From IMG/VR virus record IMGVR_UViG_2681813201_000017: DNA of 6,321 bases; one strand, 5' to 3'. Below are positions 2,141-6,296 of the stretch, piece by piece (position 1 is the stretch's first letter; every line of letters begins with the position of its first letter). Made by a program: the position numbers and the translations under genes. The notes under the pieces are model-generated. The model did no database searches. It was given only the letters and a program-made list of their open reading frames with translations, and was not told where the DNA came from. The stretch comes from a virus (taxonomy: Duplodnaviria > Heunggongvirae > Uroviricota > Caudoviricetes).

Positions 2141-2178
2141 TTTGTTTTTTTATATTTTACTGTTCACCTCTGTTCACC
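2141..2178 (+). repeat. AT-rich tract plus two direct TGTTCACC octamers (alpha-binding type I iteron sequence), ori-like
   Basis: tgtttgtttttttatattttac (2141-2160, AT-rich) followed by TGTTCACC at 2161-2168 and 2171-2178, a 10-bp register. The same octamer recurs in the cluster downstream of alpha. The array abuts the N-run, so further copies may be hidden. Confidence 0.5.
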
Positions 2179-2187
2179 TTAAGAAAA

Positions 2188-2262
2188 NNNNNNNNNNNNN
2201 NNNNNNNNNNNNNNNNNNNNNNNNNNNNNNNNNNNNNNNNNNNNNNNNNNNNNNNNNNNNNN
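2188..2262. other. Run of 75 N (unresolved or masked sequence)
   Basis: Directly visible in the sequence; ORF-track reading frames that cross it are artefacts. Confidence 1.
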
Positions 2263-2317
2263 ACGATCCCATTATGCCGCGAGTCAATGGTAGCTCAGGC
2301 GGGGCAGCCTCCGGGCT

Positions 2318-2345
2318 GGCCGGTATTCTTCGAGGCCGGTATTCT
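2318..2345 (+). repeat. Tandem direct repeat GGCCGGTATTCT x2 (2318-2329 and 2334-2345) in the leader of the rightward operon
   Basis: Two perfect 12-nt copies 16 nt apart, separated by tcga. Position corresponds to the immunity region of P4-type elements, where short sequences pair with the CI antisense RNA; assignment is inference. Confidence 0.35.
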
Positions 2346-2358
2346 CACCCCCGTCTGG

Positions 2359-2400
2359 GCTATCGCCATCGAGCGTGAGAACTCCGGCGATAGCAGTTAT
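2359..2400 (+). promoter_or_regulatory. Hairpin (9-bp stem, 18-nt loop) followed by a U-rich stretch; candidate attenuator or terminator upstream of the first rightward ORF
   Basis: gctatcgcc (2359-2367) pairs with ggcgatagc (2386-2394); followed by cagttatttgct. It sits immediately before the AAGGAGG RBS at 2411-2417. Confidence 0.3.
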
Positions 2401-2424
2401 TTGCTACTCGAAGGAGGCTGCCTT

Positions 2425-2622
2425 ATGGCTACAACCCTTACCCCCTCACACCCTGAATTTGTCTTTGTGTTTGCGGCTGTCCGTCGCGCAGACCGTCATC
2501 CCCGTATCTGTATGCTTCGCACCGTCGCCGGTGATGAACGCAGTGCCCGCCGTTCCCTTGTCCGTGACTATGTGCTCTCCCTTGCTGCCCGTCTGCCGGT
2601 GGTGGAGGTGTCCCGTGCGTAA
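2425..2622 (+). CDS. Small 65-aa protein, first ORF of the rightward (early/left-operon-like) transcription unit; occupies the position of kil in P4
   Basis: ATG 2425 preceded by strong RBS AAGGAGG (2411-2417, 7-nt spacing); stop TAA 2620-2622 overlaps the GTG start of the next ORF. Identity with P4 Kil is inferred from position only. Confidence 0.45.
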
Positions 2623-2902
2623 TAAAAAAGCCCCTCAGACCGTCTCAGCGCGTCATGACGCCCGTGAACACCTCAGCATTGAGGCTTACCATAAGCTCAA
2701 CCGCGCCAGCGCCGTATCCCAGTTTGTTGGGGGTGATTTGATTCACCGTGAACTCTCCGGCCTGCATCAGCTCTACATTCCGCATATTTTCAGCTACCTG
2801 AATGAAGATATTGATTTTGTGCTGAATGAACTGAAAGCCAAAGGCCTGTGCCGCGATTTTCTCGCCCAGCAGAAAGACCGGGGAGACAGGACGCATGTTT
2901 GA
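2615..2902 (+). CDS. 95-aa protein at the position of P4 Epsilon (helper prophage derepression); start at GTG
   Basis: GTG 2615 preceded by GGAGG (2604-2608, 6-nt spacing). The longer ORF-track version (from 2375) has an N-terminal part that overlaps the 65-aa ORF in another frame and lacks an RBS. Stop TGA 2900-2902 overlaps the ATG of the next ORF. Size and synteny fit Epsilon; I cannot verify the sequence. Confidence 0.5.
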
Positions 2903-3350
2903 TTTTCCCCAGCCCGGTGAGATTTACCGTTCTGCCGGTTTTCCCGATGTGGCCGTGGTCGGCATTCTGGAAGACGGTATTCCGTGGGAAATGCCGTACC
3001 GCTGCCCGGAAATTGTCTGGAACCCGTACCGCCGTAAATTCAGTATCCTTGTGCGTATCCTCGCTGACGGACGCACCACAGACATCCCGCTGGGGCGTTT
3101 TCTGCGGGAATTTACCTGTGACCGTCCTGACCTGTTTAAACGCAGCCCCGTAAACCGGCATGCGGTACTGAAAGAAATGGCCGGAGACCCGGAATTACAG
3201 AAATGGCGGGAAAAATATCTGGATATTTACCCGCAGGACACTGTTCCGGTCAGCCGGGCAGCACCGGTGGCGCGGGAATGGCGGGAAATTCCCCGCACGG
3301 AGCCTGACCCGGAAACCACCCCGGATAACAGTTACCGCAATTATCTGTAA
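2895..3350 (+). CDS. 151-aa hypothetical protein (size and position of P4 orf151), function unknown
   Basis: ATG 2895 with GGAG 2882-2885 upstream; start overlaps the stop of the preceding ORF (ATGTTTGA); uninterrupted 151 codons in a compactly packed operon. Confidence 0.7.
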   Translation: MFDFPQPGEIYRSAGFPDVAVVGILEDGIPWEMPYRCPEIVWNPYRRKFSILVRILADGRTTDIPLGRFLREFTCDRPDLFKRSPVNRHAVLKEMAGDPELQKWREKYLDIYPQDTVPVSRAAPVAREWREIPRTEPDPETTPDNSYRNYL

Positions 3351-3378
3351 TTAAAAAACGACCCCCGAAAAATTAAAT

Positions 3379-3404
3379 GTGCGTATTCGCGCAGGGATAC
3401 GCAC
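3379..3404. promoter_or_regulatory. Inverted repeat / hairpin in the intergenic region between the 151-aa and 106-aa ORFs
   Basis: gtgcgtat (3379-3386) pairs with atacgcac (3397-3404), 8-bp stem and 10-nt loop. There is no T-run on the + strand; on the - strand it is followed by atttaatttttcggggg, so as a terminator it is oriented against the operon. Confidence 0.35.
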
Positions 3405-3423
3405 GTCTTCAGGAGACGCAGAT

Positions 3424-3489
3424 ATGCCTTATCAGTTAATGCAACCGGCACGGAATGCAGTCATCTGTCACAGGGAGAAAAGCAAATGA
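3424..3489 (+). CDS. Candidate 21-codon upstream ORF / leader peptide ([21 protein letters not shown]) coupled to the 106-aa ORF
   Basis: ATG 3424 preceded by AGGAG (3411-3415, 8-nt spacing); stop TGA 3487-3489 overlaps the ATG 3486-3488 of the next ORF (ATGA). Confidence 0.25.
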
Positions 3490-3806
3490 AAACACCCTTA
3501 CCGCCCGTCTTACGCGCTGCCCTTTACCGTCGCGCTGTCGCCTGTGCCTGGCTGACCGTGTGCGAACGTCAGCACCGCTACCCGCATCTCACCCTTGAGT
3601 CACTGGAGGCGGCCATCGCCGCTGAGCTGGAAGGCTTTTATCTGCGCCAGCACGGTGAGGAAAAAGGGCGTCAGATAGCCTGTGCCCTGCTGGAAGATTT
3701 AATGGAATCCGGCCCCCTGAAGGCCGCGCCGTCGCTGTCCTTTCTCGGGCTGGTTGTGATGGATGAACTCTGTGCCCGTCACATAAAAGCGCCGGTACTG
3801 CACTGA
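3486..3806 (+). CDS. 106-aa hypothetical protein immediately upstream of alpha, function unknown
   Basis: ATG 3486 with GGGAGA upstream; ends 14 nt before the alpha start; same strand and compact operon arrangement. Confidence 0.65.
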
Positions 3807-3820
3807 AGGAGAACAACACC

Positions 3821-6154
3821 ATGAAAATGAACGTAACCGCCACCGTCAGCCATGCGCTCGGCCACTGGCCGCGTATTCTCCCGGCGCTGGGGATTCAGGT
3901 GCTGAAAAACCGTCATCAGCCCTGTCCGGTCTGTGGCGGGAGTGACCGCTTCCGTTTTGATGACAGGGAGGGGCGCGGCACCTGGTACTGCAATCAGTGT
4001 GGTGCCGGTGACGGCCTGAAACTGGTTGAAAAGGTGTTTGGTGTTTCCCCGTCCGACGCGGCCGCAAAGGTGGCTGCCGTGACCGGCAGCCTGCCCACGG
4101 CTGACCCGGCAGTGACGGCCGCCGCCGGCGCTGAAACAGACGCTGCCCGGAAGAACGCCGCCGCACTGGCACAAACCCTGATGGCAAAAACCCGTCCCGG
4201 AACCGGTAACGCCTACCTGACCCGCAAGGGCTTTCCCGGCCGGGAATGCCGGATGCTGACCGGCACACACAGAGCCGGTGGCGTGAGCTGGCGCGCCGGT
4301 GACCTTGTGGTGCCACTGTATGACGACAGCGGCGAACTGGTTAACCTTCAGTTAATCAGTGCTGACGGCCGTAAGCGCACCCTGAAAGGCGGACAGGTCA
4401 GGGGCACCTGTCACACCCTTGAAGGACAGAATCAGGCCGGAAAACGTCTGTGGATAGCGGAGGGATACGCGACCGCACTTACCGTACATCACCTGACCGG
4501 TGAAACGGTGATGGTGGCGCTTTCTTCCGTGAACCTCCTTTCTCTGGCCAGCCTTGCCCGGCAGAAGCATCCGGCCTGTCAGATTGTCCTTGCCGCAGAC
4601 CGTGACCTCAGCGGTGACGGCCAGAAAAAAGCCGCCGCAGCCGCAGATGCGTGTGAGGGCGTTGTTGCCCTGCCGCCGGTCTTCGGTGACTGGAATGATG
4701 CCTTCACGCAGTACGGCGGGGAGGCCACCCGTAAGGCCATTTATGATGCCATCCGGCCACCGGCTGAAAGCCCGTTCGATACCATGAGCGAAGCGGAGTT
4801 TTCCGCCATGAGTACCAGCGAAAAGGCCATGCGTATCTATGAGCATTACGGCGAGGCGCTCGCGGTCGATGCCAACGGCCAGCTTCTGTCCCGCTATGAA
4901 AATGGTGTCTGGAAGGTGCTGCCGCCACAGGACTTTGCCCGGGATGTGGCCGGGCTGTTTCAGCGTCTGCGCGCGCCGTTCTCCTCCGGGAAGGTGGCCT
5001 CCGTGGTGGACACCCTGAAGCTGATTATTCCGCAGCAGGAAGCCCCCTCCCGCCGCCTGATTGGCTTTCGTAACGGCGTGCTCGACACGCAGAACGGCAC
5101 GTTCCACCCGCACAGTCCGTCACACTGGATGCGCACCCTGTGCGATGTGGATTTCACCCCGCCGGTGGACGGTGAAACGCTGGAGACCCACGCCCCCGCG
5201 TTCTGGCGCTGGCTTGACCGTGCCGCCGGTGGCCGTGCGGAAAAACGCGACGTGATTCTGGCCGCACTGTTTATGGTGCTGGCAAACCGCTACGACTGGC
5301 AGCTCTTTCTGGAGGTGACCGGTCCCGGCGGCAGCGGCAAAAGTATCATGGCCGAAATAGCCACCCTGCTGGCCGGGGAGGATAACGCCACGTCGGCCAC
5401 CATCGAGACGCTGGAATCCCCGCGTGAACGTGCCGCGTTAACTGGCTTCTCACTGATACGCCTGCCGGACCAGGAAAAATGGAGCGGCGACGGAGCCGGA
5501 CTCAAGGCCATCACCGGCGGCGATGCGGTGTCCGTTGACCCGAAATACCGGGATGCGTACTCCACGCATATCCCGGCGGTGATTCTGGCCGTGAACAATA
5601 ACCCGATGCGCTTCACCGACCGCAGCGGCGGCGTGTCACGCCGGCGGGTGATTATTCACTTCCCGGAACAGATAGCCCCGCAGGAGCGCGACCCGCAGCT
5701 TAAGGACAAAATCACCCGCGAGCTGGCGGTCATCGTGCGTCACCTGATGCAGAAGTTCAGCGACCCGATGCTCGCCCGGTCACTGCTTCAGTCCCAGCAG
5801 AACTCAGACGAGGCACTGAACATCAAACGGGATGCCGACCCGACGTTTGATTTTATCGGCTATCTGGAAACCCTGCCGCAGACCAGCGGCATGTATATGG
5901 GGAACGCCAGTATCATCCCGCGTAATTACCGTAAATACCTCTATCACGCCTATCTGGCCTACATGGAGGCAAACGGCTACCGGAATGTACTCAGTCTGAA
6001 AATGTTCGGGCTGGGGCTGCCGGTGATGCTGAAGGAATACGGACTGAATTACGAGAAGCGCCATACCAAACAGGGGATACAGACCAACCTGACGCTGAAA
6101 GAGGAAAGCTACGGCGACTGGCTGCCAAAATGTGACGACCCTGCAACAGCCTGA
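3821..6154 (+). CDS. alpha: Alpha, bifunctional DNA primase-helicase and origin-binding replication protein of P4-type satellites, 777 aa
   Basis: 777-aa ORF with AAGGAG RBS (3806-3811). N-terminal zinc-ribbon CPVCGG...CNQCG (nt 3923-4000), primase motif EGYATA (nt 4460-4477), Walker A GPGGSGKS (nt 5321-5344). N-terminus MKMNVTATVSHALGHWPRILPALG matches my recollection of P4 Alpha. Confidence 0.95.
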   Translation: MKMNVTATVSHALGHWPRILPALGIQVLKNRHQPCPVCGGSDRFRFDDREGRGTWYCNQCGAGDGLKLVEKVFGVSPSDAAAKVAAVTGSLPTADPAVTAAAGAETDAARKNAAALAQTLMAKTRPGTGNAYLTRKGFPGRECRMLTGTHRAGGVSWRAGDLVVPLYDDSGELVNLQLISADGRKRTLKGGQVRGTCHTLEGQNQAGKRLWIAEGYATALTVHHLTGETVMVALSSVNLLSLASLARQKHPACQIVLAADRDLSGDGQKKAAAAADACEGVVALPPVFGDWNDAFTQYGGEATRKAIYDAIRPPAESPFDTMSEAEFSAMSTSEKAMRIYEHYGEALAVDANGQLLSRYENGVWKVLPPQDFARDVAGLFQRLRAPFSSGKVASVVDTLKLIIPQQEAPSRRLIGFRNGVLDTQNGTFHPHSPSHWMRTLCDVDFTPPVDGETLETHAPAFWRWLDRAAGGRAEKRDVILAALFMVLANRYDWQLFLEVTGPGGSGKSIMAEIATLLAGEDNATSATIETLESPRERAALTGFSLIRLPDQEKWSGDGAGLKAITGGDAVSVDPKYRDAYSTHIPAVILAVNNNPMRFTDRSGGVSRRRVIIHFPEQIAPQERDPQLKDKITRELAVIVRHLMQKFSDPMLARSLLQSQQNSDEALNIKRDADPTFDFIGYLETLPQTSGMYMGNASIIPRNYRKYLYHAYLAYMEANGYRNVLSLKMFGLGLPVMLKEYGLNYEKRHTKQGIQTNLTLKEESYGDWLPKCDDPATA

Positions 6155-6204: not shown

Positions 6205-6296
6205 GGTGAACAATCCACTGTTCACCCTTCACCGTATATTCACCCGTTATCACACTGAAATTAAAAGAGAAAAACGAAAGGTGAACAGTGTGAACA
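6205..6296. repeat. Cluster of TGTTCACC-type iterons in both orientations downstream of alpha (crr-like cis replication region)
   Basis: GGTGAACA 6205-6212 (inverted), TGTTCACC 6219-6226, degenerate cCTTCACC 6226-6233 and TaTTCACC 6237-6244, GGTGAACA 6280-6287, tGTGAACA 6289-6296. The first two form an inverted pair GGTGAACA-atccac-TGTTCACC. An A8/T6 tract follows at 6304-6320. Confidence 0.6.

What the first reader, a model, noticed from the sequence alone, without database searches (positions are those of the whole stretch)
2895..3806. Two uncharacterised proteins (151 aa and 106 aa) embedded between the epsilon-position gene and alpha
Both ORFs have RBSs and operon context but no motif I can recognise. 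In P4-type satellites, genes at this position are poorly characterised. They are candidates for helper-interference or host-takeover functions.
Basis: inference. Interest (0 to 1): 0.4.

Follow-up and report, generated by a model that had tools for sequence, protein, structure and literature searches.

The report
P4 satellite genes ORF151 and cnr
The two reading frames are real, conserved genes of a phage-P4-type satellite prophage: the 106-codon one is almost certainly cnr, P4's known replication copy-number regulator, and the 151-codon one is P4's still-unexplained ORF151, which nearly always travels with the helper-derepression gene epsilon.

Summary
The window is a P4-type prophage, 99.9% identical to E. 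coli O145 chromosomes and 98.6-98.8% to phage P4.

- **Identity.** ORF 2895-3350 is P4 ORF151 (one residue different). ORF 3486-3806 is identical to P4 ORF106. Both have Shine-Dalgarno sequences and evolve under purifying selection (dN/dS 0.17-0.32 and 0.08-0.14).
- **ORF106 is not uncharacterised.** It is Pfam DUF5375. It lies 8-20 nt upstream of the alpha primase-helicase gene in 75 of 76 loci with an intact alpha start. By elimination, and from my memory of the older literature, it is cnr, the negative regulator of P4 replication that acts through alpha.
- **ORF151 is still unexplained.** The family occurs only in Enterobacterales satellites, and a profile search of 1.84 billion proteins found no distant relatives. 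The model shows an SH3/Tudor-like barrel, a disordered linker and a conserved C-terminal peptide (PDNSYRHYL).
- **Linkage to epsilon.** ORF151 almost always directly follows epsilon, as a two-gene cassette scattered across the Cnr+alpha tree. There is one exception in each direction.
- **Best guess for ORF151.** It is a protein-interaction accessory of helper takeover. This is an inference, and ORF151 was not part of engineered constructs that derepress P2.
- **Verdict.** These are known genes and the novelty is low.

The parts
2615..2902 (+). epsilon, the helper-prophage derepression protein (95 aa, GTG start); first gene of the epsilon+ORF151 cassette
   Evidence: Pfam PF25738 at E=7.7e-51. 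P4 annotation 'epsilon gene product / helper derepression protein'. One residue different from P4.
2895..3350 (+). ORF151 (P4 ORF151, NP_042038 family, phrog_10748). Residues 1-110 form a folded SH3/Tudor-like barrel plus helices, 111-142 a variable disordered linker, and 143-151 the conserved C-terminal peptide PDNSYRNYL.
3378..3405 (+). Conserved 11-bp stem-loop (TGTGCGTATTC / GCGCAG / GGATACGCACG) in the ORF151-cnr spacer; role unknown (possibly an RNA processing or stability element, or a protein-binding site)
   Evidence: Present in all 9 aligned ORF151-bearing loci. RNAalifold gives -15.1 kcal/mol, but only 1 pair shows a compensatory change. Annotated as 'region of dyad symmetry' in X02534. 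Not terminator-like, because no T run follows.
3424..3489 (+). 21-codon mini-ORF with its own Shine-Dalgarno (AGGAGA at 3411-3416). Its TGA overlaps the cnr ATG (ATGA). It is the remnant of the phrog_10110 gene that precedes cnr in most P4-like elements.
   Evidence: The alignment with L039, L047, L049, L052, L056, L060 and L061 shows the same RBS and ATG starting a ~100-codon gene that also ends in ATGA on cnr. The window and P4 lack its interior. phrog_10110 assignment. The family is present before cnr in 64 of 67 loci.
3486..3806 (+). ORF106 = cnr (copy-number regulation), Pfam DUF5375; predicted four-helix bundle of 11.8 kDa
   Evidence: PF17345 at E=2.9e-63. Identical to P4 ORF106 / YQ55_BPP4. 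Lies 8-20 nt upstream of alpha in 75 of 76 loci. AF2 pLDDT 84.4. cnr assignment from PMC8628076 by elimination, plus memory of the primary literature.
3821..6154 (+). alpha primase-helicase and origin-binding protein (777 aa), the target of Cnr
   Evidence: P4 annotation. Six residues different from P4. Context only, not analysed further.

Best explanation
The stretch holds two known genes of satellite phage P4's early (left) operon, in a P4-type prophage of E. coli.

(1) ORF106 is cnr. It is a small helical protein made just upstream of the alpha primase-helicase gene. According to the primary literature, as I remember it, Cnr binds alpha, increases alpha's binding to the ori/crr iterons and thereby represses replication, which limits copy number in the plasmid state.

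(2) ORF151 is a satellite-specific protein of unknown biochemical function. It is the second gene of a mobile two-gene cassette, epsilon+ORF151. The cassette sits between the Ash-like gene and the phrog_10110/cnr/alpha block, and ORF151's start overlaps the epsilon stop codon.

Its architecture is an SH3/Tudor-like barrel with a long, highly conserved loop, then a flexible linker, then a conserved C-terminal peptide. That is the architecture of a protein-protein adaptor, and its pI of 5.5 argues against DNA binding. I infer that it acts alongside epsilon during takeover of the P2-type helper prophage or of the host transcription machinery, as an auxiliary factor. It is not part of the core anti-repressor.

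Shown: identity, coding status, conservation, synteny and fold class. Inferred: any partner or activity of ORF151.
For: Identity: 99.9% to P4 with the same annotated frames.

cnr:
- DUF5375 scores 210.9 bits against a cutoff of 30.
- It lies 8-20 nt before alpha in 75 of 76 loci.
- It also lies directly before DUF927-type primases in divergent Serratia and Citrobacter satellites.
- It is the most constrained gene of the three (dN/dS 0.08-0.14).
- PMC8628076 places P4 cnr in the family found in 90% of elements between epsilon and alpha. ORF151 is in only 12 of 80 loci.

ORF151:
- Purifying selection, dN/dS 0.17-0.32.
- Invariant N-terminus MFDFPQ..E and a conserved C-terminal Y..YL.
- Directly downstream of epsilon in 11 of 12 species-level loci, in this window, and in 5 further divergent contexts down to 43-46% identity.
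- The cassette is polyphyletic on the Cnr+alpha tree, with at least 6 placements.
- It appears as a clean 857-bp versus 23-bp indel between close relatives.
- The epsilon and ORF151 families have the same size and taxonomic range.
- Neither gene occurs in any of 50,697 phage records except P4.
Against: For cnr:
- I could not read the primary papers in the library.
- Public databases still call the protein uncharacterised. The mechanism rests on my memory plus one sentence in PMC8628076.

For ORF151:
- Linkage to epsilon is not absolute. L056 (Cedecea) has an intact ORF151 with no epsilon, and L091 (Citrobacter) has an epsilon homologue with no ORF151.
- As described in PMC9942202, epsilon and delta placed under an inducible promoter activate a P2 prophage. 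ORF151 is not among the genes added in that system, so it is apparently not needed for derepression.
- The AF2 model is only moderately confident (pLDDT 66.7), and the most conserved loop (residues 27-48) is poorly modelled.
- Co-inheritance may partly reflect physical adjacency rather than shared function.
Confidence: 0.6

Rival explanations
1. ORF151 is an independent accessory gene, for example an anti-defence or host-takeover factor aimed at a host protein. Its association with epsilon would then reflect only adjacency in a commonly exchanged DNA segment, not a shared pathway.
For: L056 keeps an intact, constrained ORF151 with no epsilon. L091 keeps epsilon with no ORF151. ORF151 is not part of the epsilon+delta constructs that activate a P2 prophage (PMC9942202). 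The nearest structural neighbours include VapX antitoxin and phage DUF1653 proteins, which are small binders of other proteins.
Against: There is no hit to any PADLOC defence model, and that library does not cover anti-defence proteins. The gene lies in the regulatory/replication operon, not in the psu-int defence hotspot described for P4-like elements (PMC8628076). The two genes stay together through at least 6 placements on the Cnr+alpha tree and down to 43% identity.
Confidence: 0.25
2. ORF151 belongs functionally with the replication module and modulates alpha or Cnr, for example in plasmid-state establishment. In that case it would have nothing to do with the helper.
For: It is co-transcribed with cnr and alpha in the same operon (gene order). 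The conserved hairpin, RBS and coupled mini-ORF link its 3' end to cnr expression.
Against: cnr and alpha are present in all 80 loci, whereas ORF151 is present in only 12. Its presence is uncorrelated with Cnr+alpha phylogeny. It persists next to a different, DUF927-type primase.
Confidence: 0.1
3. ORF151 is not a functional protein. The frame would be kept only because translation through it is needed for downstream expression (polarity or coupling), or it is an annotation relic.
For: No function has been reported since the frame was annotated as an unidentified reading frame in the deposited P4 records. My literature searches found no paper on it.
Against: dN/dS is 0.17-0.32 where synonymous sites are near saturation. 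Full-length conservation holds across at least 10 genera. Motifs at both termini are invariant. The predicted domain is folded.
Confidence: 0.03

Closest known systems
Phage P4 cnr (ORF106; UniProt YQ55_BPP4; Pfam DUF5375, PF17345)
   Same: The amino-acid sequence is identical. The position immediately upstream of alpha is the same. The Pfam match covers the full length.
   Different: Nothing differs at sequence level. The only gap is annotation: Pfam, RefSeq and UniProt label it DUF or uncharacterised, while the P4 literature names it cnr.
Phage P4 ORF151 (NP_042038; phrog_10748)
   Same: 99.3% identical (E39D is the only difference), with the same overlap with the epsilon stop codon and an identical downstream spacer.
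   Different: Nothing substantive. No function is known for the P4 protein either.
Bacterial Tudor/SH3-like RNA-polymerase-interacting domains (CarD/CdnL N-domain, Mfd RID, UvrD/PcrA C-terminal domain)
   Different: There is no sequence-profile relationship (no Pfam hit at E<=1; only eL21 at E=0.08 in PDB). ORF151 has a 20-residue conserved insertion loop and an extra helical subdomain. Eukaryotic Tudor domains, VapX and DUF1653 score equally well, so this is fold-class similarity only.
Tethering adaptors such as SspB (folded domain + flexible linker + C-terminal docking peptide)
   Same: The overall architecture is the same: a folded N-domain (1-110), a variable disordered linker, and a short C-terminal peptide conserved across the family.

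Membership tests
P4 Cnr / DUF5375 (PF17345) | Matches the family profile above the curated cutoff over its full length | tested here: met
   210.9 bits against a cutoff of 30; residues 1-106 match profile positions 1-106 of 106.
P4 Cnr / DUF5375 (PF17345) | Encoded immediately upstream of the satellite's primase-helicase (alpha) gene | tested here: met
   The gap is 8-20 nt in 75 of 76 loci with an intact alpha start, and 14 nt in the window (3806 to 3821).
P4 Cnr / DUF5375 (PF17345) | Binds alpha, stimulates its ori/crr binding and represses replication and copy number | not testable with these tools
   Known for the identical P4 protein from the literature as I remember it (Terzano 1994; Ziegelin 1997). 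Only the statement 'cnr controls the copy number' could be read here (PMC8628076).
P4 ORF151 family (phrog_10748) | Full-length profile match and near identity to P4 ORF151 | tested here: met
   phrog_10748 at E=2e-101 over residues 1-151; 99.3% identity to P4.
P4 ORF151 family (phrog_10748) | Located directly downstream of epsilon (PF25738) with overlapping or abutting stop and start codons | tested here: met
   The window has the ATGTTTGA overlap. The same order is seen in 11 of 12 species-level loci and in L084-L090. The exception is L056.
CarD_TRCF / UvrD-PcrA Tudor-like RNA-polymerase-interacting domains | Sequence-profile membership | tested here: not met
   No Pfam family at E<=1. No PDB sequence hit to these proteins.
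CarD_TRCF / UvrD-PcrA Tudor-like RNA-polymerase-interacting domains | Five-stranded Tudor-like barrel fold | tested here: inconclusive
CarD_TRCF / UvrD-PcrA Tudor-like RNA-polymerase-interacting domains | Binds the RNA polymerase beta subunit | not testable with these tools
   Needs a pull-down, a two-hybrid assay or a multimer prediction.
DUF1653 (PF07866) small phage/bacterial barrel proteins | Profile match | tested here: not met
Known anti-phage defence proteins (PADLOC-DB) | Match to any defence-system model | tested here: not met
   No hits for ORF151, ORF106, epsilon or the 75-aa neighbour at E<=0.1.

The most novel reading that the evidence does not exclude
Epsilon and ORF151 form a two-component helper-takeover module. 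In this reading, epsilon neutralises the helper's C repressor. ORF151, through its Tudor/SH3-like barrel and tethered C-terminal peptide, docks onto a second target, for example RNA polymerase's beta lobe or the repressor-epsilon complex. That would either extend or reinforce derepression to heteroimmune P2-like helpers, or redirect transcription. It would explain why the pair moves between satellite lineages as a unit.
Probability: 0.2. Interest if true: 0.5.

Novelty: already known. Interest (0 to 1): 0.25.

Why it matters
It matters little for discovery. Both frames have been annotated in P4 since the 1980s, and one of them has a published function.

Three practical points follow:
- **Annotation.** DUF5375 should be annotated as Cnr, a replication copy-number regulator, in more than a thousand E. 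coli genomes (1,426 of 5,426 complete genomes carry it).
- **ORF151 and epsilon.** ORF151 is one of the last unexplained genes of the best-studied satellite. Its cassette-like co-inheritance with epsilon gives a concrete, testable place to look for its role.
- **The 'epsilon' marker.** The marker used in published P4-like censuses (Pfam Phage_ASH) hits the neighbouring Ash ORF. The true epsilon, with ORF151, is present in only a minority of lineages outside E. coli. Most P4-like satellites may therefore derepress their helpers by another route.

Tried and rejected
- **Family scans.** Pfam, NCBIfam and PADLOC gave nothing for ORF151. NCBIfam also gave nothing for ORF106.
- **PDB sequence and profile searches.** The only hit was a borderline eL21 match at E=0.08 for ORF151, and nothing for ORF106.
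- **Profile search of 1.84 billion representative proteins with the ORF151 alignment.** There were 29 hits, all from the same family or fragments of it, and no distant relatives.
- **The idea that the 75-aa gene before cnr (phrog_10110) is an epsilon paralogue.** Rejected: hhalign probability 0.8%.
- **The idea that the spacer holds a promoter or intrinsic terminator.** The scan found no sigma-70-like site, and the only terminator-like site is on the minus strand inside cnr, which is no more than the shuffles give. Rfam found nothing in 2895-3806.
- **The idea that the hairpin is supported by covariation.** Only one compensatory pair was found, so conservation is mainly at sequence level.
- **Literature.** No paper in the library mentions orf151 with P4, DUF5375 or the accession numbers. 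The primary cnr and epsilon papers are not held.
- **Unavailable library.** The AlphaFold-database fold library was not available.
- **Minus-strand ORFs over the region** (2790-3161, 2924-3085, 3589-3843). I treated them as shadows of the conserved plus-strand genes and did not pursue them.

Full report
**What the window is**

The 6,321-base window matches E. coli O145 chromosomes at 99.9% over its whole length. It matches phage P4 (X51522) at 98.6-98.8% in two blocks. It is therefore a P4-type satellite prophage.

The gene order is as follows:

| Gene | Coordinates | Strand |
|---|---|---|
| psu | 114-686 | - |
| delta | about 760-1260 | - |
| sid | 1257 to about 1991 | - |
| 75-base run of N | 2188-2262 | . 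|
| Ash-like frame | 2266-2622 (visible part; its upstream end is hidden by the N run) | + |
| P4 immunity RNA (Rfam C4, RF01695), inside the Ash-like frame | 2283-2370 | + |
| epsilon | 2615-2902 | + |
| ORF151 | 2895-3350 | + |
| ORF106 | 3486-3806 | + |
| alpha | 3821-6154 | + |

The run of N stands for about 865 bases of P4: the origin type-2 repeats, ORF88 and the early promoters. The immunity RNA scores 74 bits.

**Checking the observation**

- The 912-base stretch is 99.9% identical to P4, where the frames carry the names ORF151 and ORF106.
- ORF106 and the 135-base spacer are identical to P4. ORF151 differs by one residue.
- Each start has a Shine-Dalgarno sequence.
- The ORF151 ATG overlaps the epsilon stop codon (ATGTTTGA).
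- Both are genuine coding genes. ORF151 has about 100 protein clusters in Escherichia, Salmonella, Kluyvera, Citrobacter, Klebsiella, Edwardsiella, Hafnia, Serratia and other genera, down to 43% identity. ORF106 has more than 220 clusters extending to Pantoea, Erwinia and Rosenbergiella.
- With synonymous sites near saturation, dN/dS is 0.17-0.32 for ORF151 and 0.08-0.14 for ORF106.

**ORF106 is cnr**

- ORF106 matches Pfam DUF5375 over its whole length (210.9 bits). Its exact sequence is UniProt 'Uncharacterized protein ORF106', YQ55_BPP4.
- I retrieved 80 loci, from one genome per species, using the ORF106 profile. The gene ends 8-20 nt before the alpha start in 75 of the 76 loci whose alpha N-terminus is intact.
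- It also sits directly before a different, DUF927-type primase in divergent Serratia and Citrobacter satellites.
- The P4-like census (PMC8628076) states that cnr controls the copy number of P4's plasmid stage. [quoted passage not shown]
- P4 has only ORF151 and ORF106 in that interval, and ORF151 occurs in just 12 of my 80 loci. The 90% family must therefore be ORF106.
- This agrees with what I remember of Terzano et al. 1994 and Ziegelin et al. 1997: Cnr is a 106-residue protein that binds alpha, stimulates its binding to the ori/crr iterons and represses replication. Those papers are not in the library, so the mechanism rests on memory.

**ORF151: what can be shown**

- No Pfam, NCBIfam or PADLOC model matches it. 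PHROGs files it as phrog_10748, 'unknown function'.
- A profile search of 1.84 billion representative proteins returned only 29 hits, all members or fragments of the same family.
- Among 50,697 phage records only P4 has it, and no plasmid record does.
- In complete E. coli genomes its DNA is in 1,001 of 5,426 genomes (1,209 places). For cnr the figures are 1,426 genomes and 1,841 places.
- The alignment shows three parts: an invariant N-terminus (MFDFPQ..E); a strongly conserved stretch at residues 23-46 (G.L..GIPW..PYRCP...WNP.R); and a variable segment at about 111-142 followed by a conserved C-terminal peptide (PDNSYRHYL).
- The AlphaFold model is moderate (pLDDT 66.7). Residues 1-110 fold into a small beta-barrel followed by helices, and residues 112-151 are disordered.
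- The viral structure library gives weak DUF1653-like matches. The PDB profile search gives a borderline match to the SH3-like eL21 (E=0.08).
- This supports a fold class, not a function. The protein is mildly acidic (pI 5.5), which argues against DNA binding.

**ORF151 travels with epsilon**

- In the 80 loci, ORF151 is present in 12. In 11 of these, the P4-type epsilon (PF25738) lies immediately upstream.
- No epsilon was found in the loci that lack ORF151.
- The most divergent ORF151 homologues (Serratia, 43-46% identity; Hafnia; Enterobacter) are again directly downstream of epsilon, even where the primase is of another type.
- On a neighbour-joining tree of Cnr+alpha, cassette-bearing elements fall in at least six separate places among cassette-free ones.
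- Between two closely related elements of one Kluyvera strain, the cassette is a clean indel: 857 bp in L049 against 23 bp in L042. It runs from the end of the Ash-like gene into the 5' end of the next gene.
- The epsilon family has the same size and taxonomic range as the ORF151 family.
- The linkage is not absolute. L056 (Cedecea) has an intact ORF151 and no epsilon. L091 (Citrobacter) has a 79-residue epsilon homologue and no ORF151.
- Engineered systems in which epsilon and delta are placed under an inducible promoter activate a P2 prophage (PMC9942202). ORF151 is not among the genes added there, so it is apparently not required for derepression itself.

**The spacer between ORF151 and cnr**

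All ORF151-bearing relatives share three features in this spacer:

- an A/T-rich stretch;
- a conserved 11-bp stem-loop (window 3378-3405, mostly sequence-conserved, with one compensatory pair);
- a strong Shine-Dalgarno sequence and an ATG.

In most relatives that ATG opens a gene of about 100 codons (75 codons in cassette-free elements; phrog_10110). The stop codon of that gene overlaps the cnr start as ATGA. The gene precedes cnr in 64 of 67 loci, and it is the '75-aa protein absent from P4' of PMC8628076.

In P4 and in this window the interior of that gene is deleted. A 21-codon ORF (3424-3489) remains, and it keeps both the ribosome-binding site and the ATGA overlap with cnr. The deletion thus seems to have preserved translational coupling into cnr. 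That reading is an inference.

The phrog_10110 family is not detectably related to epsilon (hhalign probability 0.8%).

**How it most likely works**

For cnr the mechanism is the published one: negative control of replication through alpha. I put about 0.9 on the identity. The mechanism itself is taken from the literature.

For ORF151 I commit to the following, at roughly 0.35. It is an auxiliary protein-protein adaptor of the epsilon cassette, acting during takeover of the P2-type helper or of host transcription. It would use the conserved barrel loop for one partner and the tethered C-terminal peptide for another.

The rivals are:

- an independent accessory or host-takeover gene that merely neighbours epsilon (0.25);
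- a modulator of the cnr/alpha replication module (0.10);
- a non-functional frame (0.03, contradicted by selection and motif conservation).

**Comparison with what is known, and novelty**

Both genes are members, by near identity, of long-annotated P4 gene families, so the finding is already known. The modest additions are these:

- DUF5375 is Cnr.
- Epsilon+ORF151 is a mobile cassette with a Tudor/SH3-like second component.
- P4 carries a deletion remnant of the widespread phrog_10110 gene.
- Pfam Phage_ASH is the marker used as 'epsilon' in one published P4-like census (PMC8628076), and the other equates Ash with epsilon (PMC10085698). It hits the ORF upstream of epsilon rather than epsilon itself.

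Interest is low, at about 0.25.

Noticed in passing
window 2188-2262: A run of 75 N replaces about 865 bases present in P4 (L001 2010-2874: origin type-2 repeats, ORF88/vis, early and late promoters). ORFs crossing it are artefacts of the mask.
   Followed up: partly
window 2283-2370 (+): Rfam C4 antisense RNA (RF01695, 74.3 bits, E=1.2e-13). This is the P4 CI immunity RNA, lying inside the Ash-like reading frame.
   Followed up: no
window 2266-2619 versus 2615-2902; L012 5229-5777; L039 4293-4934: Pfam Phage_ASH (PF10554) matches the ORF upstream of epsilon, while epsilon itself matches only PF25738 'Derepression'. PMC8628076 lists PF10554 as its epsilon marker, and PMC10085698 equates 'Ash (also called epsilon)'. 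Their 'epsilon' core gene therefore appears to be the Ash ORF. True epsilon is in only 11 of 80 species-level loci.
   Followed up: partly
window 3424-3489 (+): A 21-codon ORF with a strong RBS, whose TGA overlaps the cnr ATG. It is the deletion remnant of the phrog_10110 gene (75-100 aa) that precedes cnr in 64 of 67 related loci. The coupling junction is retained.
   Followed up: yes
window 3378-3405 (+): An 11-bp stem-loop conserved in all ORF151-bearing relatives, 5 nt upstream of the mini-ORF's RBS. It is not terminator-like and its role is unknown.
   Followed up: partly
L049 4946-5802 versus L042 5780-5802: Two P4-like elements of one Kluyvera sichuanensis strain differ by a clean 857-bp versus 23-bp replacement that carries epsilon, ORF151, the hairpin and the 5' extension of the next gene.
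   Followed up: yes
L056 about 5070-5240; L091 3074-3740: These are the exceptions to the epsilon-ORF151 linkage. The Cedecea element has ORF151 after about 170 nt of A/T-rich non-coding DNA and no epsilon. The Citrobacter element has a 79-aa epsilon homologue preceded by an unrelated 144-aa gene and no ORF151, plus a P2-type capsid-like gene.
   Followed up: partly
L084 5770-8811; L088 5536-8621; L091 3797-6900: DUF5375 (Cnr-like, 42% identity in L084) lies directly before DUF927-type primases. These share only the N-terminal roughly 310 residues with alpha (37-39% identity). Cnr-like control therefore appears not to be tied to alpha's D5-type helicase half.
   Followed up: no
window 3202-3213 and 3277-3288: A 12-bp direct repeat, AATGGCGGGAAA, inside ORF151 encodes a WRE motif twice (KWREK, EWREI). 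Both W-R positions are conserved in the family.
   Followed up: no
window 2161-2178 and 6205-6287: Alpha-binding type-1 iterons (TGTTCACC) of ori and of crr flank the operon, as in P4.
   Followed up: no
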